Assembly (NCBI GenBank): GCA_963848835.1
Contig: CAWKFB010000006.1
Location: 180,279-244,278 of the forward strand
Direction of reading: 5' to 3'
DNA length: 64,000 bases
Source: Candidatus Aminicenantes bacterium
GTDB lineage: Bacteria; Acidobacteriota; Aminicenantia; Aminicenantales; UBA4085
In this document: positions 2 through 62,411 of the stretch, piece after piece
Layout: each line of letters starts with the position of its first letter
How positions within the stretch are numbered: position 1 is the stretch's first letter
The notes under the pieces: model-generated
Databases searched by the model: none
What the model was told of the DNA's origin: nothing
The model's input: only the letters and a program-made list of their open reading frames with translations
Program-made: the position numbers and the translations under genes

Positions 2-568
2 CAATGGATGACCGCCGGAGGCGGGATCATCCATCAGGAGATGCCGCAGGCCCAAAAGGACTTCCTCCGGGGGCTCCAGCTGTGGGTCAACCTCCCGGCG
101 GCGAAGAAGATGATGGCCCCGCGCTACCAGGACATCAAGGCGGCCGACATCCCCGAGGTCAGAGAGGGCTCCGGGGCCGTGGTAAAGGTGATTGCCGGGA
201 CCTACGGCCGCGCCCGCGGGCCGGTCCGGGACATCGTCAGCGATCCCGAGTACCTCGACGTCACGCTTCCGGCCGGAGTCCGGTTCGTCCATGACGTCGA
301 ACCGGACCACACCGCTTTCGTCTATGTCATCGATGGGGGAGGGGGCTTCGACGCCGAGGGCACGGCGCTCGCGGCCGGAAAAGCGGGGCTCTACGGGCCG
401 GGCCGGACGCTCATGGCCGCGGCGGGGAAAGAAGGGGCGCGCTTCATCTGCGTTTCCGGCCGGCCGATCGGAGAGCCCGTCGCCTGGCGCGGTTCGGTCG
501 TCATGAACACCGAGGCCGAGCTCGACCGGGCTTACGCCGAGATCGCCTCCAAGACGTTCATTAAATAA
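2..568 (+). CDS. pirin family protein, C-terminal part (5' end outside window)
   Basis: ORF is open from the window edge. QWMTAGGGIIHQEMP matches the conserved pirin WMTAGxGIxHxE region, followed by a cupin-like C-terminal half. Stop TAA at 566-568. Confidence 0.8.
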   Translation, partial: QWMTAGGGIIHQEMPQAQKDFLRGLQLWVNLPAAKKMMAPRYQDIKAADIPEVREGSGAVVKVIAGTYGRARGPVRDIVSDPEYLDVTLPAGVRFVHDVEPDHTAFVYVIDGGGGFDAEGTALAAGKAGLYGPGRTLMAAAGKEGARFICVSGRPIGEPVAWRGSVVMNTEAELDRAYAEIASKTFIK

Positions 569-661
569 TCGGGGGACGTGGCACTCGTTTCCCGATTATG
601 AAGAGATTTCGACAATATTTATTGTCCGAAACCGGGAAACGAGTGCCACGTCCCCTTATTT
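563..661. terminator. long palindrome H1 at a convergent gene junction (candidate bidirectional terminator or palindromic repeat)
   Basis: Perfect 23-bp arms at 572-594 and 633-655 (GGGGACGTGGCACTCGTTTCCCG). The 38-nt loop holds an inner hairpin GACAAT-ATTT-ATTGTC (611-626). A/T extensions aaataa and ttattt flank the stem. It lies between the pirin stop (568) and the GH28 stop (670). GTCCCCTTATTTA occurs twice, at 650-662 and 664-676. Confidence 0.45.
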
Positions 662-2595: not shown

Positions 2596-5500
2596 ATGGG
2601 AGCCTCGAAGCCGACTCTCTCGTCCGACGCGGAGATCAACTTCCCGGAGTTCGTCCTCCTGAACGCTTCGGCCGGGGCGGGGAAGACCTACCAGTTGTCG
2701 CTCCGGTTCGTCCAATTCCTCCTCTCCGACGCGATCGCCGAGAAGATGAAAGAGCCCGGTTCCGAAGCGGCGTCCGGTTTGCGCAATCTCCTCGCCATCA
2801 CCTTCACCAAGAACGCGGCCCGGGAGATGAAAGCGCGGATCCTGGGCCGGCTCAAGAAGGCGGCGCTCGGAGACCCGAAAGCGCTCGATGAGCTCGGCGC
2901 CGTGATCTCGGCCCCGCGGGAGGAGATCCAAGAGAAGGCCTTCGGGGCGGTCGAGGACATCATCGAGGGGTATTCGGACCTCCGCGTCGACACGATCGAT
3001 AGCTTCATGTCCGAGGTCTTCCGGGCATCGACCCTGGACCTCGGGATTTCGCCCGACTACGAGATCTCCCTGGAAGGGGCCGAGATCTTCGACTACGCCT
3101 TCCAGCGGTATCTCCGCCGGGTCGGGTCGGGCACTCCGGAAGGAGCCCGGTTCCTCGAGATCACCGGGGATGTCATGTCCTTCGTCCGGGAGGACGGAGC
3201 CTTCATCTGGGACCCCGCGGCCGTCATCGGGGAGAAGCTCACCTCGCTGACCGGCAAGCTGGCCGCCCGGACCTTGCCTCCGGACCTGACCGACCATCGG
3301 CGGGCGATGGGGCCGCTCGAAATGAGGATCAAGGTCCTCGTCGAGCGCATAGCTGCGTCGATCGAGGCGGCGGGCCTCGATCTCAACGCCCAGTGCCATT
3401 TCGGCAAATGGATGAGGGAGGCCGCCTCCGCCGGCCATTTCGTCAAGTTCCTCGATGCGAGCTTCAAGTCGTTTCCGATCAAGAAGCCGAAGGGCGAGGC
3501 CCCTGCGGAGTGCGGGGCGATCGAGCGGGACTGGCCTGAGCTCGAAGAGGCCGTCCGGGCCTACCGGGGCCGCTATGCCCGGGGCTTTTTCCTTCCCTAC
3601 CTCGAAGCCCGGGACAAGCTGGCCGCCACGCTCGCGGAGGTCAAAGCGCGGCGGGGGATTGTCATCCTCGAGGACGTATACACGCAGCTGCACCGCCTCC
3701 TCGGCCGCGGCGAAGTCCCGGAAGTCTATTTCCGGCTCGGGGACCAGATCTTCCACTACCTGATCGACGAGTTCCAGGACACCTCTCCGATCCAATGGGC
3801 GGTGCTGGAGCCGCTCATCGAAAACTCACTCGGCGGGAGGGGGAGCCTCCTCCTCGTCGGGGACACGAAACAGGCCATCTACGGATTTCGCAATGCCGAC
3901 TTCGAGATTCAGGCCGGGATCGTGCGGCAAGCAGGCTCCTTCGAGCCGTTCCCCTCGGTGGAAACCGTCGTCAAGCCGATGGCCGAGAACCACCGGAGCT
4001 GCGGCCGCGTCCTCGAATTCGTCAAGACCGTCTTTCACGGGAATGTGGCCGCGTCGGAGGAATACAGGGATGCGGCCAAGCTCAGCGGCTTGAACGATTT
4101 TGTGCAGGACGTTCCCGCCGAGCGCCGCGCGTCCGGCTACGCCGAATACGCCGAGATCCCCCGCGACGACGAGTCGTGGCCGGAAAAGAAGGAGGTCCAG
4201 GAGCGCGTCCTCGACCTGCTCCGGCGCGGCTTCCGCTTCCGGGACATCGGCATCCTCACCCTCAAGAACGAGTCCGTCGTCCGGATCGCCTCCTGGCTGA
4301 ACGAGATCGAGTTCGGGGGCCGGAGCGTGCCGTTCATCCCTTTCAGCAGCCTCGATATCCGCAAGCGCAAGATCACGGGCGAGATCCTCTCCTTCCTCAA
4401 GTTCCTGGACTCGCCCCCCGACGACCTAGCGTTCGCTGCGTTCCTCCAGAGCGATCTCCTCGCCGAGCGCCTGGTCCGTGATCCGGAGGAGCCGTTCACC
4501 CGTCGCGAGGAGTGGGCGGACCGGGTCCGGCGGTTCCTCTTCGAACGGCGGACGGAGCGCCGCAGCGGGCCTGCCTACACGGATTTCCGCTCGACCTTCG
4601 ATTCCATTTGGAAGAAGTATGTCGGACCCTATTTCAAGGCGGTCGGCTACTTCCCGCTCTATGATCTCGTGACCGAGATCTATCGCGGCTTTGACGTCTT
4701 CAGGAATTTCCCCAGCGAGGAAGCGGCCCTGGCCAAGTTCCTCGAAGCCATCAAGGATTTCGAGGGGATGGGCAAGAACGACCTCGGGGCGTTCCTCTCC
4801 GAAGCGGCATCCGACGAGCGCAGGGAATCGAAGTTGGATATCGATGTCCCCGTAGACATCGACGCGGTCCGGATCATGAGCATCCACAAGGCCAAGGGCC
4901 TTGGGTTCCCGGCCGTGATCCTCCTCCTCTACGGAGAACGGTTTCAGGCTTCGGAATTCTATCTCAGCGACAAAGACGGCTGCGTCCGCGTCCTCCGGCT
5001 GAACGAGACGCTGGCCGGCGCGGACGACGACCTGGAGGAGGTCTACCGTGCGGCCAGGGAGCGGGACCGCGTCGACCGCCTCAACACGCTCTATGTGGGA
5101 TTGACCCGGGCCAAGCAGGAGCTCCACGTCCTCGGGGTGAAGCGCGACAAGGAATCCTATCCCTTCGATTTCTTCGCCGGCTTGGGCGCCCGGCCGCTCG
5201 GAGAAAAAGGGCCGAGCCTCGAAGGGGCCCCGGCGGAAGAAGCGGGTCCGGAGCCCCGCCTCGAGCGGTTCGGAGACGCGGACGTCGTCGGGCGCTCGTT
5301 TACGCCGAGGGGCGCCCTGAGCGACCGCGGCATCCTTCGGGGGATCCACGCCCACGCCATCCTTGCCGGCATCGAATACGTCCGCACCTCATGGGCCGAG
5401 GAGGTCCGGCGGGCGATGGACGGATTGATCATTCCGGAATCGGAGCGGCCGCTGGCCGAGGACGCGGGCCGCGCGATCGCCGCCTATTTCGAGGCGTCCG

Positions 5501-9805: not shown

Positions 9806-9873
9806 GCCGCGTATTCTAGACGATTTCTGTCCGTCGGCAAAGCATACGAAGGAAGGCGGGGCTCCCGGGGTTT

Positions 9874-9923
9874 CGGCAAGGGCGGTCTCGCTCGGCGGGA
9901 AATCCTGACGCTCTGCCTGTCAT
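9874..9923 (+). repeat. repeat module X, copy 1
   Basis: 50 nt matching 53213-53262 with one mismatch. The last 44 nt (GGGCGGTCTCGCTCGGCGGGAAATCCTGACGCTCTGCCTGTCAT) are identical. Confidence 0.85.
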
Positions 9924-9944
9924 TCGAGCTCCTAGGATCGCTCC

Positions 9945-10034
9945 GGGATTGCCCCACGCTCACGTTGGAACCCTTCTGGTTCCCCCCGAATTAGGCGGGG
10001 CCCCCCCTCCTGATGTTCGCTTTGGGGCAATCCC
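9945..10034 (+). repeat. repeat module W, full copy (hairpin-closed, about 90 nt)
   Basis: 12-bp closing helix 9945-9956 / 10023-10034. Inner hairpins GGAACC-CTTCT-GGTTCC (9967-9983) and CCCC-loop-GGGG (9984-10000). Near-identical inverted copy at 53820-53912, with partial copies at 53745-53800 and 39119-39180. Confidence 0.8.
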
Positions 10035-10274
10035 TTCGCTCTCTGAGTCTTCCGTATTTTATGCTTGCAACTGGTCACGTGCTCAAACATTCTCGCGGCG
10101 CCGCTACGCGGGGCTACCCGTCGGAGCTCGGGACGCAGAGCTGGGATTTCCCGATGTCGCTCGAGCCGCCCTCGCCTCTCCGCAAGCTCGCCCTTACGCG
10201 GCTTGTACGTTGGCGCACCGGATCATCCCAAGATGCGTGGGCATGCCGAGCGGACGACTCGGACGATGAAAATC

Positions 10275-10355
10275 GGGACGCTCCCAGGACTCATATAAAT
10301 CATCTACCCCACCTGCCGCCCCTAGAACTCGGGGCGGACTGTCGGTAAGCGTCCC
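10275..10355 (+). repeat. repeat module U, copy 1 (candidate structured RNA/ssDNA element)
   Basis: Closing helix GGGACGCT (10275-10282) / AGCGTCCC (10348-10355). A/T box TCATATAAATCATCTAC. Inner hairpin CCGCCCC-TAGAACTC-GGGGCGG (10316-10337), followed by ACTG..GGTA. Confidence 0.75.
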
Positions 10356-10383
10356 TCCCAGCATGTCGCTCATCAGGGTGACG

Positions 10384-10490
10384 CAGCGAATCGGCCAAGT
10401 CTGTCCGCGGCAGGATTCTCGATCGCCGCCGTAAGATGATTGGGTCGCATGCGTCTGATATTCGGGGCGCGAGGGGGGCTCCCTGAGCGG
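10384..10490 (+). repeat. repeat module Z, copy 1
   Basis: Homologous to the reverse complement of 53316-53415. Shared blocks are GCGAATCGGCC..GTCCGCGGCAGGATTC and GCGTCTGATATTCGGGGCGCGAGGGGGGCTCCCTGAGCG. Confidence 0.7.
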
Positions 10491-10510
10491 GCCAGCGCAG
10501 CGAGCTTACC

Positions 10511-10594
10511 GGGACGCCTTCAAAACTCTCATGCATATTTATCTCTCTCTCCTACCTCTCCCAAGACTAGGAGAGGACTGCTGGTAGGCGTCCC
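10511..10594 (+). repeat. repeat module U, copy 2
   Basis: Closing helix GGGACGCCT (10511-10519) / AGGCGTCCC (10586-10594). A/T box ATGCATATTTATCTC. Inner hairpin CCTCTCC-CAAGACTA-GGAGAGG (10555-10576), followed by ACTG..GGTA. Confidence 0.75.
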
Positions 10595-10741
10595 TCCTAG
10601 TTGAATGGAGTCGAGCGAGAGCGAGCGAGCACGGGGAGCGGATTTTTCTCGCTGGGGAAAATCCGCGTCCCGATCAGGGAGTCCCCCGGGAGCCCCGTCG
10701 GATTCACAAGGTATTCCGGTACGTGCTAACGTTAGCGAGGA

Positions 10742-11365
10742 ATGCAACGGAAGAAACCCTCCAAAGGTTTGGTAACATTGGACATGGACGAACAGCATCT
10801 TGTCGGCCGGCTGCAGACGGGCGATGAGGCGGCATTTGCCGAGATCGTCCATATCTACAAAGACAAAATCGTGAATTACCTGTACCAGATCACGGGCGAC
10901 TATCAACGGGCGGTCGACCTGTCCCAGGAGACCTTCATCCGGGTCTTCTTCAAGGCGGACAAATACAAGCCCATCGCCCCGTTCTCGTCCTGGGTCTATG
11001 CCATCGCCTCGAACCTGGCCAAGACCGACTTGAAAAAGCGGCGCCGCATGGCCGCCGTCTCCCTGGACGTCCTGCCGCCTACGGTCGAGCTCAGCACGCC
11101 GAGCGGCGAGGCGTCGGACTCCGGCCTCGTCCGGAACCTCCGCCAGGCCCTGGAGGCGCTCAACCCGCGCTACCGGATTCCGATCATCCTTAAGGACGTG
11201 GAAGGCTATTCCCAGGAGGAGATCGCCGCGATCATCAAGCGGCCGGTCGGGACGGTCAAGGCCCGGATCAGCCGGGGCCGGGCGATCCTCCGCAAACAGC
11301 TCGAAAAGGCCGCCGGGGCGGAGACGCCCCTGCGCGTCCAGGAGTTTCTCGATGGAAGAATATGA
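10742..11365 (+). CDS. ECF-type RNA polymerase sigma-70 factor
   Basis: Region 2 (IYKDKIVNYLYQITGDYQRAVDLSQETFIRVF, FSSWVYAIASN) and region 4 (ILKDVEGYSQEEIAAIIKRPVGTVKARISRGR). An alternative ATG start lies at 10784. Confidence 0.9.
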   Translation: MQRKKPSKGLVTLDMDEQHLVGRLQTGDEAAFAEIVHIYKDKIVNYLYQITGDYQRAVDLSQETFIRVFFKADKYKPIAPFSSWVYAIASNLAKTDLKKRRRMAAVSLDVLPPTVELSTPSGEASDSGLVRNLRQALEALNPRYRIPIILKDVEGYSQEEIAAIIKRPVGTVKARISRGRAILRKQLEKAAGAETPLRVQEFLDGRI

Positions 11366-24287: not shown

Positions 24288-25812
24288 TCAACGAGGGAGC
24301 TTGTCGGCGTAACCCTTGTGACGCGGGAATTCCGCGGCGAGGGAGCGGGTCAGCGCATCGAACCGGGCCGCCGCCTCGCGATAGACGGCCGCGGCGGCGG
24401 GATCGGGCTCGATGACGGGTCCGTCGCGGCGGATGAGCCGTCCCGCGATCTCGGCGATCCCGGTCGTTTCCCCCCGGTCGAGCCCGTGATTCCAGATCGC
24501 CTGGATCGCGGCCCCGTAAGCGGCCGCTTCGCGTTCCGCGGGAACGGAGATGGGCGCGTCCATGACGTCGGCGGCGATGCGCAGCCAGACAGGATTTTCC
24601 GAGCCGCCTCCCGTTGCCCGGAGCTCCGTCGCGGCGAGTCCGAGTGAACGGAGCCGCCGTAATCCGTAGCGCAAGTTCAGACAGATGCCTTCGAACATCG
24701 CCCGGGCGAGGTTCTGAGGCCGGAGATTCCGCGAGGTCAGTCCGAAGAACGCGCCGCTCGCCTCCGGGAGGATAGGCACGCGTTCCCCGTCGAGGTAGGG
24801 GAGATAGATGATCCCTTCCGCACCCGGGGGCGCTTCCGAGGCGGCCGCCGCGAGACCCGCGTGATCGAGCCGGAACAGACGGCGCATCGCGTCCTCGCCG
24901 TTTCCGGCGTTGAGAGTGCAGCTCAGCGGAAGCCACGCTCCCGTGCTGTCGCAAAAGCAGGCGATCTCGCCCCCGGCGTCGACCGCCGGCTTCTCCGCGT
25001 AACATGAGATCGTCCCGGACGTTCCCAGGCTGAGGGTCGCCCCGCCCGGCGAGACATTCCCGGTCCCGATGGCGGCCATCATATTGTCGCCGCCCCCGCT
25101 CGCCACCAGAACCCGCCCGAACCCGAACTTCCGGGCGATCGAGGGCCGGATCGTCCCGGCCGGAGTCCGGGGGTGGACCGGGACGGGCAGGAGGTCCGGG
25201 AGACGAGGATCGATCGTCTCAAGCGCTTCGGTCCGCCAATTTCGCGTCCGGACATCCAATCAGGCCCGTGCCCGACGCGTCGCCGAACTCCATCCGGTAT
25301 TCCCCGGTGAGGTGGAAATTCAGGTAATCGTGGGGGAGGAGGATATGGGCGAGGGCATCGAAGCGGTTCGGCTCGTGGCGCTTCAGCCATAGGATCTTAG
25401 AGGCGGTATAGCCGACGGCCAGCCCGAGGCCGAGCTTTTCGATCGCGCCCGCGGGACCTCCGAGCCGGTCCGTGATTTCGCGCGTCTCTTCGATCGTCGA
25501 CGTGTCATTCCACAGCTTGGCAGGCCGGATCGGGAGGCCGGCGGCGTCGAGCGGCACGAACCCGTGCTGTTGTCCGGATATGCCGACGGCGGCTACATTC
25601 GAGGGATCGATCGAGGATGCACGGATCGCTTCGGCCAGGGCGCTCTCCAGAGCGGCCGTCCACATTTCGGGCCGTTGTTCGCTCGCGCCCGGCGGCAGAC
25701 CGGGGATCATTTCGTGAACGGCCTGGGCCCGCCCGAGCACCCTTCCCGTTTCGGAATCGACGACGAGGACCTTGGTGCTTCCGGTCCCGGAATCCACGCC
25801 GATAGCGATCAT
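24288..25812 (-). pseudogene. xylB: xylulokinase (FGGY family), one +1 frameshift
   Basis: N-terminus MIAIGVDSGTGSTKVLVV...ISGQQHGFVPLD...GDASGTGL. It continues in the next frame as MDVRTRNW...GGGDNMMAAIGTGNV. There is an extra T at about 25258 (ctgaTTggatg). Length check: 1525 nt minus 1 gives 1524 nt. Confidence 0.8.
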
Positions 25813-34302: not shown

Positions 34303-34878
34303 ATGACCCTCCAAGAGTTGATCCGCAAGCGCCGGACCATCCGGCAATTCGGTCCCCAGCCGGTCGCTCCTGAGGCTTTGTCCAGGATCGTCGACGCCGG
34401 CCGCCTGGCGCCCTCCGCGGCCAACCATCAGCCGCTCGAGTTCATCGCTGTCGACCGTGAAGACCTGCGGGCGAAGATCTATCCCGGTCTGAAATTCGCC
34501 TCGGCGATCGCCCCCGCGGGCTTTCCCCGGCCGGGCAACGAGCCGAAGGCCTATATCTTCACCCTCGTCAACCTGAAGATCCGGGAGAAGATGTACGAAT
34601 ACGACGTCGGGGCGGCGATGGAGAACATGTGCCTCGCCGCGCTGGCCGAGGGGCTCGCGAGCGCTTGGATCATCTCCATCGACCGGGCGGCCATGGCCGA
34701 GCTGTTGGGCGTTCCGGTGGAATACAAGATCGACTCCGTCTTGGCTTTAGGATATCCGGCCCAGGAATCGATCGCCGAGGTCTCGACCGAGACGACGACG
34801 TACTGGCAGGACGAGGATCTGACCTTCCACGTCCCGAAGCGTCCCCTCTCGGCCGTGCTCCACATCAACAAATTCTAG
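34303..34878 (+). CDS. nitroreductase family protein
   Basis: RRTIRQFGPQPV...RLAPSAANHQPLEFI is the classic nitroreductase FMN-binding N-terminus. 191 aa. Confidence 0.85.
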   Translation: MTLQELIRKRRTIRQFGPQPVAPEALSRIVDAGRLAPSAANHQPLEFIAVDREDLRAKIYPGLKFASAIAPAGFPRPGNEPKAYIFTLVNLKIREKMYEYDVGAAMENMCLAALAEGLASAWIISIDRAAMAELLGVPVEYKIDSVLALGYPAQESIAEVSTETTTYWQDEDLTFHVPKRPLSAVLHINKF

Positions 34879-34965
34879 AAATCGCTGCCAGTCATCTGAA
34901 TACGCCAATTTTCCGGACCGTGAAACAGCGAAATAGGCTTATTCAGATGACTGGCACCGATTTCT
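34877..34965. terminator. long palindrome H2 at a convergent gene junction (candidate bidirectional terminator or palindromic repeat)
   Basis: 26-bp arms at 34877-34902 and 34940-34965 (AGAAATCGCTGCCAGTCATCTGAATA) with one C-C mismatch, and a 37-nt loop. Starts inside the nitroreductase stop codon and ends 17 nt before the pmbA stop. Confidence 0.45.
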
Positions 34966-34981: not shown

Positions 34982-36335
34982 CTAGGATCCGGCGATGAGC
35001 ATCTCGGCGACCTTGATAGTCGGGCCGCAGATCGAGCCGCGGAACTCGAGGTCGCTTCCGACCATCTCGATCCCCTTGAGGACTTCGTCCAGGTTCCCCG
35101 AAATCGTGATCTCGGAGACGGGATAAGCGATCTCGCCCTTTTCGATCCACAGGCCGAAGGCGCCCCGGGAGATGTCCCCGGTCACCGGATTCAACCCGTG
35201 GCCGAGCGTCCGGATGAGGAGAAGCCCCTCGGCGCAGGACCGGATGATCTCGTCGGGCGAATGAGGCCCGGCTTCCATGTAGAAGTTATTAGGCCCGGCG
35301 CCCGATCCGGCCGCGTTGCCCGTGGACGTCCTGCCCAGCTTCCGGGCGGCGTAGGTGTCGCACAGGAAGCTCTCCAGGATGCCGGCCGTCACGACCTTCG
35401 TCCGCCGGCAGGGGAGGCCCTCCGCGTCGAACGGGCTCGATCCGGGGCGGCGCGGCATCAGGCCGTCGTCGACGATCGTGATCCGATCGCTCGCGATGTG
35501 CGTCCCGAGACGCTCGGCGAGATACGTCGACCGTTGATAGACCGACGTCCCCGAGACGCAGGAAAAGAGGAAGCCCAGCAATCCCGACGTCATGAGCGGC
35601 TCGAAGATGACCGGAACACGGCGGGTCGCGGATCTTGCGCGGGCTGAGCTGCCGGACGGTCCGGGCGATCGCGGTCCGGGCGATCTTCTCGGGAGGGTCG
35701 AGGTCGCGAAAGTGCGTCTCCGCCGAAAACCAGAAATCCTCGACCTTGTCGTCGGTCGGACCGGCCTGGAGGGCTAGGCTCAGGTCGAAGTGCGTCCGGC
35801 GGAATTCGCCCAGGAAGCCGTTCGAGCTCGCCAGGACGGAGCGCGAATCGCCCGAGGAGAATCCCGCCCCATAGCTGTTGGTGATCCGCTTGTCGGCCAG
35901 GGCGATCCGCTCGGTTTCGAGGGCCAGGCCGATCTTCGTCCTCGGATCGAGCCTCTCGATCTCCGGATCGAAGAGGTCGAGCGCGGCCGGATCGATCCCG
36001 GCCGTGGCGAGCTCGGGCAGGCCGGAGAACGGATCGGGATTGGCCAGCTCGGCGCGCCGGACGGCGTTCCGGATGAGCTCGTGGACCGTTTCCTCCCGGA
36101 GGTCCGAGGACGAGGCGAAGGCGGTCTTGTGGTCCTTGATGACCCGGAAGCCGAGCCCGCGGCTCCCGGCTTCGACCAGGTTCTCGATCTCGCCCATCCG
36201 GATGTCGACAGAGAACTCGACCCCGTCGCCGATCGCGAGCTCGATCTCGTCCGCGCCCGCGCGCCGGCCGAAGTCGACGAGCTTCGCGGCTAGGTCGAGA
36301 AGCGGGCTTGCCGCGGCTCCCAGAGGGGCGCTCAT
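34982..36335 (-). pseudogene. pmbA: PmbA/TldE metalloprotease subunit, one +1 frameshift
   Basis: N-terminal part MSAPLGAAASPLLDLAAKLVDFGRRAGADEIEL... joins the C-terminal part ...TRRVPVIFEPLMTSGLLGF...GPTIKVAEMLIAGS at about 35627. The ATG overlaps the tldD stop (ATGA). Length check: 1354 nt minus 1 gives 1353 nt. Confidence 0.8.
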
Positions 36336-37784
36336 TCGCGTCCTCCGACGGTCATCTTGGAGATCTTGATCGTCGGGCAGCCGTCCATGACCGGGACATC
36401 CTGGCCTTCCTTGCTGCACGTGCCCGTCTGTTGGCTCCAGTCCAGATCGTCGCCGACCATCTCGATCCTGCGGAGGATGTCGAGGTTCGACCCGATGAGG
36501 GTCGCCTGCTTGACCGGGGCGGTCAGGCGGCCGTCCTCGATCAGGAATCCCGAGCTGACGGAGAACGTGAACTTGCCCGAGTCCTCGACCTGGCCGCCTT
36601 GGAACCGGTCGGCATAGAATCCCTTTTTCACCGAGCGTATGATCTCTTCGGGCGGAGTCTCGCCCGGATCGATATAGGTGTTGGCCATGCGCGGGATGGG
36701 GATGTCCGTGTAGTCCTGCCTCCTCCCGTGGCCCGTCGGCTTCATCTTGAGGATCCGCGCGGACAGGCGGTCCTGGAGGAGCCCCCGGACGACGCCGCGC
36801 TCGATGAGCGTGGCTTTGCCCGGGACCGTCCCTTCGTCGTCGATGCTATAGGAGCCGCGGAAGGACGGAATGGTCGGATCGTCGTGGATCGTCACGAGCG
36901 CCGAGCCGACCTTTTTGCCGATCTTGTCCCAGAAGACCGAGGTCTTCTTGCGGATGAAATCCGCTTCGAGGAGGTGGCCGACGGACTCGTGGATGAGCAC
37001 TCCGGCGTGGCCGGGCGAGAGGACGACGGGCATCTCGCCCGCGGGCGCCGGCCGGGCGTCGAGAAGCTGAAGGGCTTCCTCCGCCGCTTCCCGGCCGATC
37101 TCCTCGGGTGTCAGGACGCGGGAGAAATGCTCGAGGCCGACACGGCCTCCGCCGCCCGAGAAGCCGTACTCCCGCAGGCCCGCCTTCTCGGCGATGGCCA
37201 CGCAGGTCAGCTTGACCATCGGCCGCTCGTCGGAGGCGAGATGGCCTTCGGAATCGGCGACGAGAAGGCGCTGCATGCCGCTTTGGAAACCGGCTTTGAC
37301 CTTGTGGACCGCCGGATCGGCGGCCTGGCAGGCGGCGTAAGCCGACCGGACGAGGGCGATCTTGGCTTCGAGCGGGGCCGAGGCCGGCGGCAACTTCGAC
37401 GCGGAAGGGGCTCGGGACGGGACCGATCACGCGAAGATCGGCGGCCTTCGCCGAGGGGGACGAGGCCGCGATGGCGGCCGCGGAGCGCGCGGCCTGGCGG
37501 AGTCTCTCCGGAGAAAGGTCGTTCGTATATCCGTAGCCCGTCTTCTCTCCGGAAAGGACCCGGATCCCGACGCCGAGGGAAACGCTCTCGGATGTGTCCT
37601 TGATGATGTCCTCTTCCATGAAGATGGACTCGTGGGTCCGGTATTCGGCGAAAATCTCGGCGAAATCGCCGCCGGAAGCGAGCGCGGCGTCCAGGACCTG
37701 GCGCAGGAGGGTCGGGGTCAGGCCAAAGCGGTCTTCGAAGGAGAACATGTCGGCCATTCTGGCATAGATAAGCGGCTCCCGCAA
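36332..37784 (-). pseudogene. tldD: TldD metalloprotease, one +1 frameshift
   Basis: HESVGHLLEADF (HExxxH) and the GFYADRFQGGQV...GTCSKEGQ core. The N-terminal and C-terminal frames join at about 37393. Start is TTG at 37784 or ATG at 37757. Confidence 0.8.
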
Positions 37785-37808
37785 GAAGGGCTCCGGGATT
37801 GTACCTTT

Positions 37809-37969
37809 CCCGAAGCGCCGACGATTCCCTTTGCCCGTGCCGCTTTCGGATTTTCGTATTGATTTCTACCCCCCAGCCCCCCTACGACAAACAGGGGGGA
37901 TTTGAAAGCGGCTCGGGAAAGGTGTGCAGGGGGGAGAAGATCAATAAGGAAATTTGGGGGCGCTTCGGG
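37809..37969. repeat. nested head-to-head pair of V-type repeat units
   Basis: Outer helix CCCGAAGCGCC (37809-37819) / GGCGCTTCGGG (37959-37969). Inner unit at 37828-37922 has its own roughly 18-bp helix, an A/T box GTATTGATTTCTA and hairpin CCCCCC-TACGACAAACA-GGGGGG. A second A/T box TTATTGATCTTCTCC reads on the minus strand (37935-37955). Confidence 0.7.
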
Positions 37970-37993
37970 CCATCTTCGGAAATCGCCCCACGC

Positions 37994-39118: not shown

Positions 39119-39180
39119 AGCGAACATCACGGAAGGGGGGCCCCTTTGGGGGGAACCGGGACGGGTTCCCCCGTGAGCGT
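39119..39180 (-). repeat. repeat module W, partial copy without closing helix
   Basis: GCGAACATCACGGAAGGGGGGCCCC..GGGGGGAACC-GGGACG-GGTTCC..CGTGAGCG aligns with 53832-53898 and with the reverse complement of 9956-10020. Indels relative to the other copies break any common reading frame. Confidence 0.65.
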
Positions 39181-39290
39181 TGAGTCATCCCGTAGCTCTC
39201 CTTGTTTGACCCGGTTCATCATGATATTCTGAAACTCCAAAAATGGGACCGATCATCGGCATTTTCCCGCTCTTCGCCCAGGAGGCCGAC

Positions 39291-53140: not shown

Positions 53141-53212
53141 GATCCCTCCTCTTCCTTCCTGATTCGACTATAGGTCCGCCCCCCTCCGTTGTCAAGAAAG
53201 TTCGGGATGGAT

Positions 53213-53262
53213 CGGCGAGGGCGGTCTCGCTCGGCGGGAAATCCTGACGCTCTGCCTGTCAT
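53213..53262 (+). repeat. repeat module X, copy 2
   Basis: Matches 9874-9923 (49 of 50 nt, with 44 contiguous identities). Followed at 53272-53285 by CGGGGCTCCCGGGG, which precedes X in the other island. Confidence 0.85.
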
Positions 53263-53315
53263 CGAAAAGAACGGGGCTCCCGGGGGCTCCCCCGGCTCAC
53301 GAAGAATGTTCGCCT

Positions 53316-53415
53316 TAGGGAGCCCCCTCGCGCCCCGAATATAAGACGCGGACGTCCTGCGAGTTTTCGTCGATCTCGGTGAATCCTGCCGCGGACGGCT
53401 CGGCCGAATTCGCCG
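53316..53415 (-). repeat. repeat module Z, copy 2
   Basis: Its reverse complement aligns with 10384-10490. Confidence 0.7.
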
Positions 53416-53540
53416 CATCCTTCCCCCGACCCGGGGGACCCCATCCGGCTCATCGTCCGAGTCGTCCGTACGTCAGGCGCGCGCTCCCAATGGCCGATCG
53501 TGGGACGGTGAGCGAAGATATCGCCATCGTACCTGCGGGA

Positions 53541-53623
53541 GGGACGCCTACCTGCAGTCCCTTCGAGTCGTAGAAGGGGAAGGGGATGTAGAGAATTATA
53601 GATAAGATTCCGGAAGGCGTCCT
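53541..53623 (-). repeat. repeat module U, copy 3
   Basis: Read on the minus strand: AGGACGCCT ... TATAATTCTCTAC ... CCCTTC-TACGACTC-GAAGGG ... ACTGCAGGT-AGGCGTCC. Same architecture as 10275-10355 and 10511-10594. Confidence 0.75.
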
Positions 53624-53648
53624 GGTCTTATGCGCGGTCCGAAGATCG

Positions 53649-53731
53649 CCCGAAGCGCCCCCCGAATTTCTTTATTGATATTCTCCTCCCTGCCCCCCAA
53701 CTAACATGGGGGGATTCGTCGGCGCTTCGGG
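53649..53731 (+). repeat. repeat module V (U-like unit with a different closing helix)
   Basis: CCCGAAGCGCC (53649-53659) / GGCGCTTCGGG (53721-53731), plus CGAAT/ATTCG. A/T box TTTATTGATATTCTCC. Hairpin CCCCCC-AACTAACAT-GGGGGG. Related copies at 37809-37969 and 23080-23125. Confidence 0.7.
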
Positions 53732-53744
53732 AAAGGAACGAACC

Positions 53745-53800
53745 CGCGCTTCGCGGAGGGAACCCGCTCGGATTCCCCTTGTGAGCATTGGGGCAATTCT
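53745..53800 (-). repeat. repeat module W, second degenerate copy
   Basis: Minus strand reads AATTGCCCCAATGCTCAC-AAG-GGGAATCC-GAGC-GGGTTCCC-TCCGCGAAGCG, which parallels the 5' half of W. Confidence 0.5.
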
Positions 53801-53819
53801 GAAAAACTCTCCGGGCGGA

Positions 53820-53912
53820 GGGATTGCCCATAAAGCGAACATCAGGAGGGGGGGCCCCGCCTAATTCGGGGGGGAACCAGGAGGGTTCCAACGTGAGCTT
53901 ATGGGCAATCCC
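53820..53912 (-). repeat. repeat module W, full copy (inverted relative to 9945-10034)
   Basis: Closing helix GGGATTGCCCAT/ATGGGCAATCCC. Hairpins GGAACC-CTCCT-GGTTCC and CCCC-GAATTAGGC-GGGG. The tail CCTCCTGATGTTCGCTTT is conserved. Confidence 0.8.
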
Positions 53913-53978
53913 GAAGCCGTTTGACTTGGACCCTACGGGTTCATATCATACGTCCGGCTCGAAAAGGAGAATCCATCC

Positions 53979-58987: not shown

Positions 58988-61538
58988 ATGCTGGAATCGT
59001 ACCGGAAGAATGAGGAAGAACGGCGCGCTCTGGGCATCCCACCCCTGCCCTTGAGCCCCGAAGAGACGGCCGAGGTCTGCCGGCTCCTCGAAGCCCCGCC
59101 GCCGGGCGTGGGACCGGATCTCCTCGCCCTCCTCCGCGACCGGGTTTCGCCGGGGGTGGATCCCGCGGCCAAGGTCAAAGCGGAATGGCTCGCCCGCGTC
59201 GCTTCGGGCTCGGTCTCTTCGCCGGCCCTTTCCCGGTCCGAAGCCGTCGCCCTCCTGGGCACGATGCTCGGCGGCTACAACGTCGCTCCGCTCGTCGGCT
59301 TGCTCGACGATCCCCAGCTCGGTTCCGAGGCCGCCCGTGCCCTCGGCCGGACCGTTCTCGTCTATGGCGCTTTCGACAAGGTCGCCGACATGGCGGCTTC
59401 GCACCAGAACGCCAAGGCCGTCATGCGCGCCTGGTCCGAGGGGGAGTGGTTCCTGTCGCGTCCGCCCCTGCCGGAGAGCGCGACCCTGACCGTTTTTCGC
59501 GTCGACGGAGAGATCAACACCGACGACTTTCTCTCCGGCAAAGCAAGCTTCGACGCGGCCCGACATTCCGCTCCACGCCCTGTCGATGGGACAGACGCGC
59601 TTCCCCGGCGGTCTCGCGGCGATCGCGGGCTTCAGAGCCGCGGGCAAGCGCGTAGTCTTCGTCGGCGACGTGGTCGGCACCGGCTCGTCCCGGAAATCGG
59701 CCTGCAACTCGGTTATGTGGCACATCGGCGAGGACATTCCCTTCGTCCCCAACAAGCGCCGCGGCGGGATCGTCCTGGGCGGGAAGATCGCCCCGATCTT
59801 CTTCAACACCACGGAGGACTCCGGCGGGCTGCCGATCGGAGAGGTCGACGTGAACGGGATGAAAATGGGAGATGAGATCGTCTTGGACCTCAAAGCCGGG
59901 GTCATCCGCGGCGCGGGCGGAAAGGTGTTATCACACTTCAGCCTCAAACCGGCCACGCTCCCCGACGAGTTCCGAGCCGGCGGCCGATTGAACTTCATCA
60001 TCGGCCGGGCCTTGACCAACAAGGCGCGAGCCCGTCTGGGGCTTCCCGAAGCCGAATTCTTCACCCGCGTTGAAAACCCAAAACCCAAGCCGGCTCAGGC
60101 GTATTCGCTGGCCCAGAAGATCGTCGGCCGGGCCTGCGGCCTCCCCGGCGTCCTGCCCGGGACGGCATGCGAGCCGAAGATGACCACGGTCGGGTCCCAG
60201 GACACGACCGGGCCCATGACCGCCGACGAGCTCAAGGAGCTGGCCTGCCTGGAGTTCCAGTGCGGCCTGTTCATGCAGTCGTTCTGCCACACCGCCGCCT
60301 ATCCCAAGCCCGCCGACGTGAAGATGCACCGAACCCTGCCGGGTTTCATGATCGAGCGGAAGGGCGTGGCCCTCAATCCCGGCGACGGCGTCATCCATTC
60401 CTGGCTCAACCGCCTGCTCCTGCCCGACACGATGGGCACGGGCGGCGATTCGCACACCCGATTCCCGATCGGCCTCAGCCTGCCGGCCGGGTCCGGCCTC
60501 GTCGCCTTCGCCGGAGCGCTCGGGTTCATGCCGCTCGACATGTACGAGTCCGTCCTCGTCCGCTTTCGCGGGACTCGCCGGCCCGGGATCACCCTCCGCG
60601 ACGTCGTCAACGCCATTCCCTATTTCGCCATCAAGGAAGGGCTCCTGACCGTGGCCAAGAAGGGCAAGAAGAACGTCTTCAATGATCGGATCCTCGAGAT
60701 CGAAGGGCTGGACGATCTGACCGTGGACCAGGCCTACGAGCTGACCGACGCCTCCGCCGAGCGCTCGGCGGCCGGAAGCGTCATCGCCCTCAAGGTCGAA
60801 GCCGGTGGCCCGTTTCCTCCGGAGCAACGCCGCCCTGATGAAGAAGATGATCGAGGCCGGCTACCGGGACGCAGAGACGCTCAAGCGCCGGATCGACGCC
60901 TGCGAGGCCTGGCTGGCCAAGCCGTCCATGATCGAACGGGACGCCAAAGCTGAATATGCCGCCGTCCTCGAGATCGACCTGGCACGATATCCGCGAGCCG
61001 ATCCTGGCCTGCCCGAACGATCCCGACGACGTCAAGCTCCTGTCGGACGTCGCCGGCGACCGCATCGACGAAGCCTTCATCGGCTCCTGCATGGTCAACA
61101 TCGGCCATTTCCGGGCCGCCGGCCGCATCTTCGACAAGGCGCCGCTATCCCGAAGACGCGGATCTGGATCACGCCGCCGACGAAGATGGATGATGATCCA
61201 GCTCAAGAAAGAAGGATATTATTCGATCTTCTCCCAGGTCGGGGCGCGGACGGAGATCCCCGGCTGTTCGCTCTGCATGGGCAACCAGGCCCGCGTCGCA
61301 GCCCGGCGCGACCATCATCTCGACCTCGACGCGCAATTTCGACGACCGGATGGGGGACGGGGCGCGGGTCTACCTCGGCTCGGCCGAGCTCACCGCCCTC
61401 GCGGCCCTGAAGGGCCGGCTGCCCGCGGCCGAAGAGTACTTCACGGTCATGAAGGAAAAGGTCCTCCCCGCCGCGGCCGACATCTATCGCTACCTTCAGT
61501 TCGACGAAATGAAGGATTTCACTCTGATCTATGCCTGA
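58988..61538 (+). pseudogene. acnB: aconitate hydratase 2 / 2-methylisocitrate dehydratase, six frameshifts
   Basis: Collinear with E. coli AcnB from MLESYRK to the C-terminus ([103 protein letters not shown]). Shifts near 59530, 60801, 60985, 61141 (-1), 61190 and 61300. Length check: 2551 nt minus 5 plus 1 gives 2547 nt. Confidence 0.85.
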
Positions 61539-61574
61539 ACGGCCGCGGTTCGGCCGTCCGGAAGGAGAAACGGA

Positions 61575-62333
61575 ATGATCTCACTCGAAGGCAGGAAAAC
61601 CCTGATTACGGGCGGATCCCGGGGGATCGGCCGGGCGACGGCCCTCCTTTTCGCCCGGGCCGGAAGCGACGTCGCCTTCACTTACGGCTGCCAGGAAGCC
61701 GCGGCCCTCGAGGTCCTCAAGGCCATCGAGCCGACCGGCCGGGCCGGTCTCGCCTTCAAGTGCGATATCGCGGACGAGGCCGCGGTCCGGAACGTCGTCG
61801 CGGAGATCGTCCGGGCCTGGGGCGGGATCGATGTCCTCGTCAACAACGCCGGGATCTGGACCGGTCTCGAGATCGGAGAGTCGGACACCGACGCCTGGAA
61901 GGAAACGCTCGCCGTCAACCTGGACAGCGTCTATTATTTCAGCGACGCCGTGATCCCGCACATGAAGGCCCGGAAGCGGGGCTGGATCATCAACGTCGGC
62001 TCGACGGCCGGGATCCGGGGCGAGGCCCATCACTCCCACTACGCCGCGACGAAGGGGGCCCTGAACGCCCTGACGAAGTCCTGGGCCGTCGAGTTCGCGC
62101 CTTGGGGGATCCGGGTCAATTGCGTCGCCCCCGGCTGGGTGGACACCGACATGTGCACCGAGGTGTTCAGCGACAAGGATTTCGAGGAGAGCGTCCGCCA
62201 ATCCATCCCCTTGAAGCGCATCCCGCCGGCCGAGGATATCGCCGGTCCGATCCTCTTCCTGGCCTCCGACCTGGCCCGGCACATCACCGGGGCGATCATC
62301 AGCGTCAACGGCGGGTCCGTCCTGTGCGGATGA
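61575..62333 (+). CDS. short-chain dehydrogenase/reductase (FabG-like 3-oxoacyl reductase)
   Basis: [14 protein letters not shown], and the S...YAATK catalytic motif. Intact 252 aa. Confidence 0.85.
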
Positions 62334-62411
62334 AAAGGCGGGGAAAATCCTTCAATTTTTCCTTGACAGGCCTTTCCGGCTTGTGTTATTGAAGGTTGCG
62401 TATCAGGTATT

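What the first reader, a model, noticed from the sequence alone, without database searches (positions are those of the whole stretch)
10275..10594. Three copies of an ~82-nt hairpin-closed unit with fully compensatory stem changes: candidate new structured RNA or ssDNA element
Copies lie at 10275-10355, 10511-10594 and 53541-53623 (minus strand).

- **Closing helix:** all share GGGACGC(C)T / AG(G)CGTCCC.
- **A/T box:** TATAAAT, ATATTTAT or TATAATT, inside otherwise GC-rich DNA, followed by a C/T-rich tract.
- **Inner hairpin:** the stem sequence differs completely between copies yet is always perfectly paired (CCGCCCC/GGGGCGG, CCTCTCC/GGAGAGG, CCCTTC/GAAGGG).
- **Loop and tail:** the 8-nt loop is conserved (TAGAACTC, CAAGACTA, TACGACTC), followed by conserved ACTG-NN-GGTA.

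Stem covariation with conserved loops indicates selection on structure. The fixed polarity (C-rich arm always 5') argues for a single-stranded functional form. I recognise no described motif.

Caveat: the A/T box lies inside the closing helix. If it acts as a -10 promoter element, that helix could not form in the RNA.
Basis: seen in the sequence. Interest (0 to 1): 0.78.

Follow-up and report, generated by a model that had tools for sequence, protein, structure and literature searches.

The report
Mobile hairpin repeat in Aminicenantes spacers
The three hairpin units are real copies of a short palindromic DNA repeat that comes and goes between closely related strains of an uncultured Aminicenantes bacterium, so it is most likely selfish mobile DNA rather than a new RNA gene.

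Summary
**Observation:** confirmed. Three ~88-nt copies lie at 10273-10358(+), 10509-10597(+) and 53538-53625(-). They share a closing helix, an A/T box, a C/T tract, a covarying 7-bp hairpin and a conserved tail.

**Family:** an unbiased 3'-anchor search and a covariance model found 12 more copies in independent metagenome assemblies. A sister family (f2) has the same architecture but a different closing helix.

**Distribution:** there was no hit in Rfam, plasmid, phage or viral collections. There was none in 1.13 Mb from about 70 other Aminicenantes species.

**Why probably not an RNA gene:**
- Copies sit between back-to-back canonical sigma-70 promoters, outside the transcription units.
- They have no -35 box, no fixed -10 register and no terminator.
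- They are absent from the same spacers in strains 84-96% identical, and one is flipped in another strain.
- They occur nested inside other palindromic repeats.
- Stem changes are almost all full Watson-Crick swaps (27 double changes, 1 wobble).

**Best reading (about 0.6):** a new lineage-specific module of a BIME/MITE-like mosaic of mobile palindromic repeats. It is probably copied through a DNA hairpin by an enzyme encoded elsewhere. No transposase, target duplication or transcript evidence was obtained.

**Score:** moderate-to-low interest; new member of a known kind.

The parts
10273..10358 (+). f1 repeat, copy 1 (inner stem CCGCCCC/GGGGCGG; closing helix GGGACGCT/AGCGTCCC)
   Evidence: 92.5 bits, E = 1e-20. 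Same subfamily as L010:4304-4392.
10509..10597 (+). f1 repeat, copy 2 (inner stem CCTCTCC/GGAGAGG). It is a strain-specific gain.
   Evidence: 96 bits. In L097 (sigma gene 96.3% identical at the nucleotide level), 29 nt stand in place of the window's 113 nt, between identical flanks of 42 nt and about 78 nt. L011 shares the 29-nt state.
53538..53625 (-). f1 repeat, copy 3 (inner stem CCCTTC/GAAGGG)
   Evidence: 83.9 bits. The same spacer in L152 carries an f1 copy in the opposite orientation. In L154 the spacer is only 135 nt and has no repeat.
53650..53731 (+). f2 repeat: same architecture as f1, different closing helix (CCGAAGCGCC/GGCGCTTCGG), inner stem CCCCCC/GGGGGG. It lies head-to-head with copy 3.
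   Evidence: 54.8 bits with model R2. 90.8% identical to the f2 copy at the same position in L152.
37835..37917 (+). f2-type repeat with a third closing helix (CCGTGCCGCTTTC/GAAAGCGGCTCGG), nested inside another f2 copy
   Evidence: 50 bits.
37794..37980 (-). Outer f2 copy. Its inner hairpin position is occupied by the nested copy at 37835-37917.
   Evidence: (pairs I5, I10).
9940..10051 (-). 'A' repeat: 16-bp terminal inverted repeat GGGATTGCCC(C/A)TAAGC with a G-rich hairpin and a GGAACC hairpin inside. It is the carrier in which f1 or f2 is nested in other loci.
   Evidence: I1, I2; 87.8% to 53803-53917. Absent from L013 at this position.
53803..53917 (+). 'A' repeat. Its right end lies 7-9 nt upstream of the -35 box of the ChaN-family gene promoter.
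39119..39202 (+). 'A' repeat (left end truncated), again ending about 10 nt upstream of a -35-like box of the downstream rhamnosidase gene
   Evidence: The promoter was read by eye.
9858..9870 (.). Left arm (GGGGCTCCCGGGG) of the inverted repeat that bounds the spacer core, which is inverted relative to relatives
10684..10696 (.). Right arm (CCCCGGGAGCCCC) of that inverted repeat
53167..53195 (-). Canonical sigma-70 promoter TTGACA-17-TATAGT of the GNAT gene. Copy 3 lies about 340 nt upstream of it.
   Evidence: Conserved in the minimal spacer of L154.
53921..53949 (+). Canonical sigma-70 promoter TTGACT-17-TATCAT of the ChaN-family gene
10703..10732 (+). Probable promoter of the ECF sigma gene (TTCACA-18-TAACGT with TG upstream), downstream of copy 2
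   Evidence: Read by eye. Conserved in L013 and L097. Inferred, not scored by the scan.

Best explanation
**What it is.** The unit (f1) is a non-coding palindromic interspersed DNA repeat of about 90-110 bp. It is one module of a lineage-specific mosaic of nested hairpin repeats (f1, f2, 'A' and others). These fill the promoter-distal part of intergenic spacers in one narrow Aminicenantes lineage.

**How it most likely works.**
- It behaves as non-autonomous mobile DNA. New copies appear in spacers, often inside or next to other palindromic repeats.
- Copies are probably made through a folded single-stranded DNA or cruciform intermediate. The closing helix and inner hairpin would be recognised by structure by an enzyme encoded elsewhere in the genome.
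- The stems stay strictly Watson-Crick for one or both of two reasons. The DNA hairpin may be what is needed for mobility. Alternatively, intrastrand template switching may copy one arm onto the other.
- It is not a promoter and not a free-standing RNA gene.
- Its visible effects on the host are expansion of divergent spacers from about 135 to about 840 nt, and a supply of inverted repeats that go with inversions.

**Shown:** family membership, hairpin covariation, gain and loss between strains, nesting, position outside transcription units.

**Inferred:** the single-stranded DNA mechanism and the trans-acting enzyme.
For: **Gain and loss between close strains.**
- Copy 2 is replaced by 29 unrelated nt, between identical flanks, in L097. 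That strain's sigma gene is 96.3% identical at the nucleotide level.
- L011 shares the 29-nt state.
- The OYE-sigma spacer is 324-733 nt without f1 in L011, L013 and L016, against 936 nt in the window.
- The GNAT-ChaN spacer is 135 nt with just the two promoters in L154. It is 664 nt with f1(+) in L152, and 838 nt with f1(-) in the window.

**Narrow distribution.**
- 0 hits in 185,579 species genomes for the 3' anchor.
- No real hit in 1.13 Mb from about 70 Aminicenantes species with models R1 or R2.
- Nothing in plasmids, phages or viral contigs.

**Several subfamilies per genome.** The window has three different inner stems and L010 has two.

**Nesting and mosaic order.**
- f1 is inserted at GCGAACATC^AGGA of the 'A' repeat in L009, L010b and L002.
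- f2 lies inside 'A' in L001 and L152.
- One f2 copy lies inside another f2 copy at 37794-37980.

**Position outside transcription units.** Canonical TTGACA/TATAAT promoters lie next to the genes, and the repeats lie between them.

**Type of compensation.** There are 27 double-change cells against 1 wobble cell, with 97.3% of cells paired. Both strands fold equally well.

**No known RNA family**.
Against: - No transposase, RAYT or recombinase was found among about 38 window proteins scanned. None appears in the called genes of the related loci. Only 64 kb of the genome is in hand.
- No target-site duplication is visible. The flanks (ATC on the left, AGG on the right) are conserved rather than duplicated.
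- The copy 2 polymorphism is a replacement (29 nt for 113 nt), not a clean insertion.
- Between f1 and f2 the helices differ while the unpaired A/T box and C/T tract are kept. That is the pattern expected of a functional folded strand, and it is unlike typical MITEs, which keep their ends and vary inside.
- Only about 15 f1 and about 6 f2 copies are known, and most were found through a fixed 3' anchor.
Confidence: 0.6

Rival explanations
1. The unit is a structured non-coding RNA, either a small RNA or a cis-acting leader. Its closing helix, internal loop and hairpin would be maintained by selection on RNA folding.
For: - Strong compensatory variation in the inner hairpin and closing helix.
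- The loop, the C/T tract and the 3' linker are conserved.
- The same architecture with three different closing helices occurs in f1 and f2.
- Folding z-scores are about -3.
- Three half-compensated pairs are A.C on the reported strand, which means G.U on the complement (c3, L152, L008). If it is an RNA, the complement may be the functional strand.
Against: - The scan found no promoter in the unit, and the only terminator-like hit touching it is a weak 5-bp stem on the minus strand at the 5' edge of copy 1, within chance expectation.
- The units lie between divergent sigma-70 promoters, outside the mRNAs.
- They are absent from orthologous spacers of strains 84-96% identical.
- Orientation is flipped at the same locus in L152.
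- There is 1 wobble cell among 28 variant cells.
- There is no Rfam match.
- Orientation in non-divergent spacers is mixed. L001, L005 and L006 are co-oriented with the genes; L002 and the nested f2 are opposite.
Confidence: 0.15
2. The unit is regulatory double-stranded DNA. It could be a portable promoter, with the A/T box acting as a -10 element. It could also be a binding or bending site for a nucleoid or regulatory protein that acts on the neighbouring divergent promoters.
For: - An AT-rich box inside 65% G+C DNA is present in every f1 and f2 copy.
- Copies sit in promoter regions.
- The companion 'A' repeat ends a constant 7-12 nt upstream of the -35 box of five different genes.
Against: - The A/T box has no conserved TAnnnT register and no TTGACA-like -35 box. 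The scan calls no promoter in any copy.
- The minimal spacer of L154 has both promoters and none of the repeats.
- IHF and ECF-type consensus matches, checked by eye, were inconsistent between copies.
- Compensatory stem changes are not expected for a sequence-specific double-stranded DNA site.
Confidence: 0.12
3. The unit is a folded single-strand recombination site or cassette boundary, analogous to integron attC or shufflon sites. Modules in these spacers would then be shuffled and inverted by a site-specific recombinase.
For: - The spacer core 9858-10696 is cleanly inverted relative to L013 and L016 between 13-bp inverted repeats.
- Modules occur in different orders and orientations in different strains.
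- Architecture is conserved while sequence is variable, as in attC sites.
Against: - The inversion end-points are a different repeat (GGGGCTCCCGGGG), not f1.
- There are no attC core sites (RYYYAAC/GTTRRRY).
- There is no integrase or invertase in the window or the related loci.
- No cassette ORFs are present.
- Inversion could arise from ordinary homologous recombination between inverted repeats.
Confidence: 0.08

Closest known systems
BIMEs of enterobacteria and RIMEs of rhizobia (intergenic mosaic elements built from palindromic units). This comparison rests on my own knowledge.
   Same: - Short palindromic modules are combined in variable order and orientation within intergenic DNA.
- They are lineage-specific and non-coding.
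- They vary between strains.
   Different: - The modules have no REP-type GTAG or CGTC tag.
- f1 is a compound unit with a closing helix, a 26-nt one-sided A/T-rich loop and an inner hairpin.
- Copies sit between divergent promoters rather than downstream of genes.
REP/REPIN elements mobilised by RAYT tyrosine transposases (PMC3116915, PMC3733652)
   Same: - Hairpin-forming extragenic repeats are thought to move as folded single-stranded DNA through a single-copy enzyme acting in trans.
- Several families can coexist in one genome.
- Stems covary between families.
   Different: - PMC3733652 describes REPs as 20-40 bp palindromes with an unpaired GTAG or CGTC tag at one end. They lie mostly between unidirectional or convergent ORFs, and often occur as inverted dimers.
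- f1 is about 88 nt.
- Its GTAG lies inside helix 2 rather than being an unpaired tag at the foot of the hairpin.
- Copies are single or in direct tandem.
- Copies favour divergent spacers.
- No RAYT was seen.
Bacterial MITEs such as Correia (Neisseria) and ERIC/IRU (enterobacteria). This comparison rests on my own knowledge.
   Same: - Imperfect palindromes of about 100 bp with terminal inverted repeats.
- Presence/absence polymorphism between strains.
- Nested variants occur.
- They can fold when transcribed.
   Different: - No target-site duplication.
- No known parent insertion sequence.
- The terminal helices differ between f1 and f2 while the interior is conserved, which is the reverse of most MITE families.
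- The copies are not in transcribed regions, as far as promoter positions show.
Integron attC sites. This comparison rests on my own knowledge.
   Same: A folded single strand with paired ends, internal unpaired bases and a variable terminal hairpin. Structure is conserved more than sequence.
   Different: - No R''/R' core sequences.
- No cassette ORFs.
- No integrase.
- The internal loop is asymmetric and 26 nt long.

Membership tests
REP/REPIN (RAYT-associated) | 20-40 bp palindrome with an unpaired GTAG or CGTC tag at one end (PMC3733652) | tested here: not met
   The inner hairpin is 22 nt and has no tag at its foot. GTAG occurs in GGTAGGCG, but it is paired (TACC/GGTA) and lies 6 nt from the hairpin. 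The whole unit is about 88 nt.
REP/REPIN (RAYT-associated) | Units commonly paired in inverted orientation (REPIN doublet) | tested here: not met
   f1 copies are single, or in direct tandem in L010. The only head-to-head pair is f1 with f2.
REP/REPIN (RAYT-associated) | A RAYT (Y1 transposase) gene in the genome, flanked by the repeats | not testable with these tools
   No Y1_Tnp hit among about 38 window proteins. Only 64 kb of a contig of at least 374 kb is available.
REP/REPIN (RAYT-associated) | Located mainly downstream of genes, between unidirectional or convergent ORFs | tested here: not met
   At least 7 loci are divergent spacers: window R1 and R2, L004, L009, L010, L152 and L154.
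MITE | Terminal inverted repeats | tested here: met
   GGGACGCC/GGCGTCCC, 8-9 bp. It is intact in 11 of 13 copies and compensated in copy 1 and L010b.
MITE | Target-site duplication flanking each copy | tested here: not met
   Flanks are ATC/ACC on the left and AGG/ATG on the right in most copies, with no direct duplication. The copy 2 site shows a 29-to-113 nt replacement.
MITE | Insertion polymorphism between related genomes | tested here: met
MITE | A parent autonomous element with the same ends | not testable with these tools
   None is present in the DNA held.
Mosaic intergenic repeats (BIME/RIME-like) | Several distinct palindromic modules combined in variable order and orientation in spacers | tested here: met
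   f1, f2, A, X, B-C-D and a GGAATTAAGG-type palindrome are found in different combinations in the window, L001-L010, L098, L099 and L152.
Described structured RNA (Rfam family) | Match to a curated covariance model | tested here: not met
   Gathering mode gives only tRNA-Leu. In E-value mode the best hit has E = 0.82, to a plant microRNA.
Independent small-RNA gene | Own promoter and terminator, and conservation at orthologous loci | tested here: not met
Sigma-70 promoter | TTGACA-like -35 box, 16-18 nt spacer, TAnnnT -10 box in a fixed register | tested here: not met
   The scan finds real promoters beside the genes but none in the units. The A/T box register varies: CATATT, CGTATT, TGTATC, CGTGTT and others.
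Integron attC | RYYYAAC/GTTRRRY core sites, cassette ORFs and an integrase | tested here: not met
   The sequences are absent from the units. There is no integrase in the window.

The most novel reading that the evidence does not exclude
f1 and f2 are not merely selfish palindromes. They would be the folded single-strand recognition modules of an undescribed recombination system, either DNA sites or short guide-like transcripts. That system would insert and shuffle cassettes between 'A'-type termini at a fixed distance upstream of sigma-70 -35 boxes, creating strain-variable, invertible upstream regions for core genes such as an ECF sigma operon.
Probability: 0.1. Interest if true: 0.75.

Novelty: new member of a known kind. 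Interest (0 to 1): 0.35.

Why it matters
**What it adds.** The finding is a well-delimited, previously undescribed family to the catalogue of bacterial interspersed palindromic repeats. It is the first I could find for Aminicenantes (literature search).

**Practical uses.**
- It explains why these spacers break metagenome assemblies and differ between near-identical strains.
- It warns against reading hairpin covariation in repeats as proof of an RNA gene.
- It offers strain-typing markers.

**Possible wider interest.** It could be a tractable case of nested mobile palindromes. This would need confirmation of two regularities seen here:
- the 'A' repeat ending a constant distance upstream of -35 boxes;
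- the clean inversion of a whole upstream region between strains.

Tried and rejected
- **Small ORF on the reverse strand.** The ORF (MHESFEGVPV.., preceded by an AGGAG-like tract) was rejected. The ATG is missing in copy 3, L002, L004 and L005, and the frame shifts in L007.
- **Alternative 3' hairpin CTGCAGG/CCTGCAG.** It would compete with the closing helix. It is perfect in only 3 copies, and changes in the other copies are not compensated.
- **A/T box as -10 with GGGACG as -35.** There is no conserved register, and the scan is negative.
- **IHF consensus (WATCAANNNNTTR) and ECF-type GGAAC..CGT motifs.** Both were checked by eye and were inconsistent between copies or wrongly spaced.
- **Orientation bias toward the downstream gene.** This looked significant at first, but it is automatic in divergent spacers. 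In co-directional spacers the orientation is mixed.
- **The 29 nt in L097 as a relic of an inverted f1.** Local alignment is no better than shuffles.
- **Two weak model hits in other Aminicenantes.** L029 and L043 both lie in coding DNA and are chance matches.
- **52 viral contigs with the 15-mer anchor.** None carries the element.
- **Exact-protein look-ups of the window's own contig.** Three failed, so more of the source genome could not be fetched.

Full report
**1.
- The three units are at 10273-10358(+), 10509-10597(+) and 53538-53625(-).
- All described features are present:
  - the closing helix GGGACGC(C)/(G)GCGTCCC;
  - an A/T box;
  - a C/T tract;
  - inner stems that differ but are perfectly paired (CCGCCCC, CCTCTCC, CCCTTC);
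  - 8-nt loops;
  - the tail ACTG-NN-GGTA-R-GCGTCCCTCC.
- A further short helix, TACC/GGTA, extends the closing helix.
- Similarity is far beyond chance: blastn E = 2e-12 for copy 2 against copy 3, and covariance-model E = 1e-18 to 1e-21.
- Both strands fold about equally well relative to shuffles.

**2. Host and setting.**
- Sigma-factor homologues and 80 genome loci place the window in Candidatus Aminicenantes (Acidobacteriota). The nearest species representative is only 79% identical in that protein.
- The window is core chromosome. It encodes EF-G, IleRS, glutamine synthetase, AddAB-like proteins and others, with no transposase or recombinase among the proteins scanned.
- The units lie in the only two long spacers of the window, and both are divergent:
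  - OYE(-)/ECF sigma(+), 9806-10741;
  - GNAT(-)/ChaN-family(+), 53141-53978.

**3. It is a family, but a narrow one.**
- A 21-nt pattern taken only from the 3' tail gave no hit in 185,579 species genomes.
- The same pattern gave 10 metagenome contigs. Nine carry the complete unit, including parts the pattern did not require.
- Model R1 found a further tandem copy in L010. Model R2 found copies in L152 and L154. This makes about 15 f1 copies.
- The models also revealed a sister family, f2, at window 53650-53731 and 37835-37917, a split copy at 37794-37980, and copies in L001 and L152.
  - f2 has the same order of parts as f1.
  - Its closing helices differ: CCGAAGCGCC/GGCGCTTCGG, or CCGTGCCGCTTTC/GAAAGCGGCTCGG.
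- Neither model found a real copy in 1.13 Mb from about 70 other Aminicenantes species.
- Nothing was found in Rfam, plasmids, phages or viral contigs.

**4. Covariation is real but of a particular kind.**
- The test used 16 sequences.
- 97.3% of cells pair, and 10 of 19 pairs show changes on both sides.
- No shuffle reaches these values, and the slid controls drop to 44-58%.
- There are 27 cells with a double change and only one with a single-sided (wobble) change.
- Subfamilies are defined by linked variants (inner stem plus C/T tract). Several subfamilies coexist in one genome.
- Strict Watson-Crick compensation with almost no G-U is what a DNA palindrome shows. The mechanism could be selection on a DNA hairpin or intrastrand template switching (mechanism described in PMC8794818). 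It is not typical of RNA families; this last point is my inference.
- Caveats:
  - the alignment was fitted to the model;
  - cells are not independent events;
  - the 3' arm of the metagenome copies was fixed by the search.

**5. The units are outside the transcription units.**
- This organism uses canonical promoters:
  - TTGACA-17-TATAGT for GNAT;
  - TTGACT-17-TATCAT for the ChaN-family gene;
  - TTGCCG-16-TAGAAT for OYE.
- The repeats lie between these back-to-back promoters.
- In L154 the GNAT/ChaN spacer is only 135 nt. It consists of the two promoters with 19 nt between the -35 boxes.
- The A/T box has no fixed TAnnnT register and no -35 partner.
- The scan found no terminator following the units. 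The only terminator-like hit near one is a weak 5-bp stem on the minus strand at 10274-10286, within chance expectation.

**6. The units come and go between strains.**
- L097 has a sigma gene 96.3% identical at the nucleotide level. It has 42 identical nt to the left and about 78 identical nt to the right of the copy 2 site, but 29 unrelated nt instead of the window's 113 nt.
- L011 shares the 29-nt state.
- L011, L013 and L016 (sigma protein 89-94% identical) have spacers of 324-733 nt without f1.
- At the GNAT/ChaN locus:
  - L152 has f1 in the opposite orientation to copy 3;
  - the neighbouring f2 is conserved at 90.8%;
  - L154 has neither.
- Strains with 97-98% identical sigma proteins (L098, L099) have entirely different upstream content.

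**7. The units are part of a nested mosaic.**
- The same spacers hold other repeats.
- One is an 'A' element with 16-bp terminal inverted repeats GGGATTGCCCATAAGC and two internal hairpins.
- f1 is found in two positions:
  - inside 'A' at GCGAACATC^AGGA (L009, L010b, L002);
  - between an 'A' right end and the next 'A' left end (L001, L004, L005, L007, L010a, L152).
- f2 replaces the G-rich hairpin of 'A' in L001 and L152.
- One f2 copy is nested in another at 37794-37980.
- The core of the OYE/sigma spacer (9858-10696) is cleanly inverted relative to L013 and L016, between 13-bp inverted repeats.

**8. Interpretation.**
- The best-supported reading is a new, lineage-specific mobile palindromic repeat. 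It is one module of a BIME/MITE-like mosaic, propagated in trans, probably through a DNA hairpin.
- What is missing:
  - a mobilising enzyme;
  - a target duplication;
  - a clean insertion junction;
  - any expression data.
- One feature fits a functional folded strand better than a classical MITE. Unpaired segments are conserved while helices covary between f1 and f2. The RNA and recombination-site readings therefore keep some probability.
- The orientation argument for RNA collapses. Co-orientation is automatic in divergent spacers and mixed elsewhere.

**9. Comparison with known systems.**
- f1 fails the defining features of REP/REPIN: tag, size, dimer arrangement and location (PMC3733652, PMC3116915).
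- It fails MITEs on target duplication. A parent element could not be tested.
- It fails attC sites, promoters and all Rfam families.
- It meets the looser definition of intergenic mosaic palindromic repeats.
- I found no paper on such repeats in Aminicenantes.

**10. Verdict.** It is a new member of a known kind, of moderate-to-low general interest. A small chance remains that the nested, promoter-adjacent, invertible arrangement reflects an undescribed recombination system.

Noticed in passing
window 9858-10696 (arms 9858-9870 and 10684-10696): The whole core of the OYE/ECF-sigma spacer is inverted relative to L013 and L016. The breakpoints lie in the 13-bp inverted repeat GGGGCTCCCGGGG/CCCCGGGAGCCCC, while the flanks stay collinear. 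This could be an invertible upstream region or a one-off recombination.
   Followed up: partly
window 53803-53917, 39119-39202, 9940-10051; also L001, L005, L009, L152: The 'A' repeat (terminal repeats GGGATTGCCCATAAGC) ends a nearly constant 7-12 nt upstream of the -35 box of five different genes. Its termini also enclose different cargo: a G-rich hairpin, f1, f2, or a GGAATTAAGG-type palindrome.
   Followed up: partly
window 37794-37980: One f2 repeat is nested in inverted orientation exactly where the inner hairpin of another f2 repeat should be.
   Followed up: partly
window 9873-9923 and 53212-53262: A 51-nt direct repeat, 98% identical ('X', GGCGAGGGCGGTCTCGCTCGGCGGGAAATCCTGACGC...). It is also present next to the sigma gene in L013 and L016, and in L152. 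Its function is unknown.
   Followed up: no
window 34877-34965; also L098, L005, L007: A 35-bp-arm palindrome (..GCCAGTCATCTGAATA../..TATTCAGATGACTGGC..) is followed by an 'A'-right-like end (GTGAGCGATCCCGGAGC). It is related to GGAATTAAGGTGCCAGTCATC-type palindromes in other strains, and so represents another repeat family.
   Followed up: no
window 24288-25812, 34982-36419, 59586-62392: Three genes appear split into adjacent or overlapping ORFs: FGGY kinase, PmbA/TldD, and possibly aconitase. The aconitase case is weaker: the second ORF (60956-62392) had no Pfam hit, but L152 calls a single 847-residue gene there. These may be frameshift errors in the assembly or pseudogenes.
   Followed up: no
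L006 about 4300-4330 (minus strand): A sigma-54-type promoter (TTGGCACGATAGTTGCTT) lies about 75 nt downstream of an f1 copy. So f1 can sit where enhancer or bending sites usually lie. This is a single case.
   Followed up: no
window 10742 versus 10784: Most homologues of the ECF sigma factor are 193 aa. The real start is therefore probably the ATG at 10784, not 10742.
   Followed up: partly
window 567-660: A 31-bp-arm inverted repeat, 90% complementary, lies between two genes near the left edge. It is probably a terminator or another palindromic repeat.
   Followed up: no
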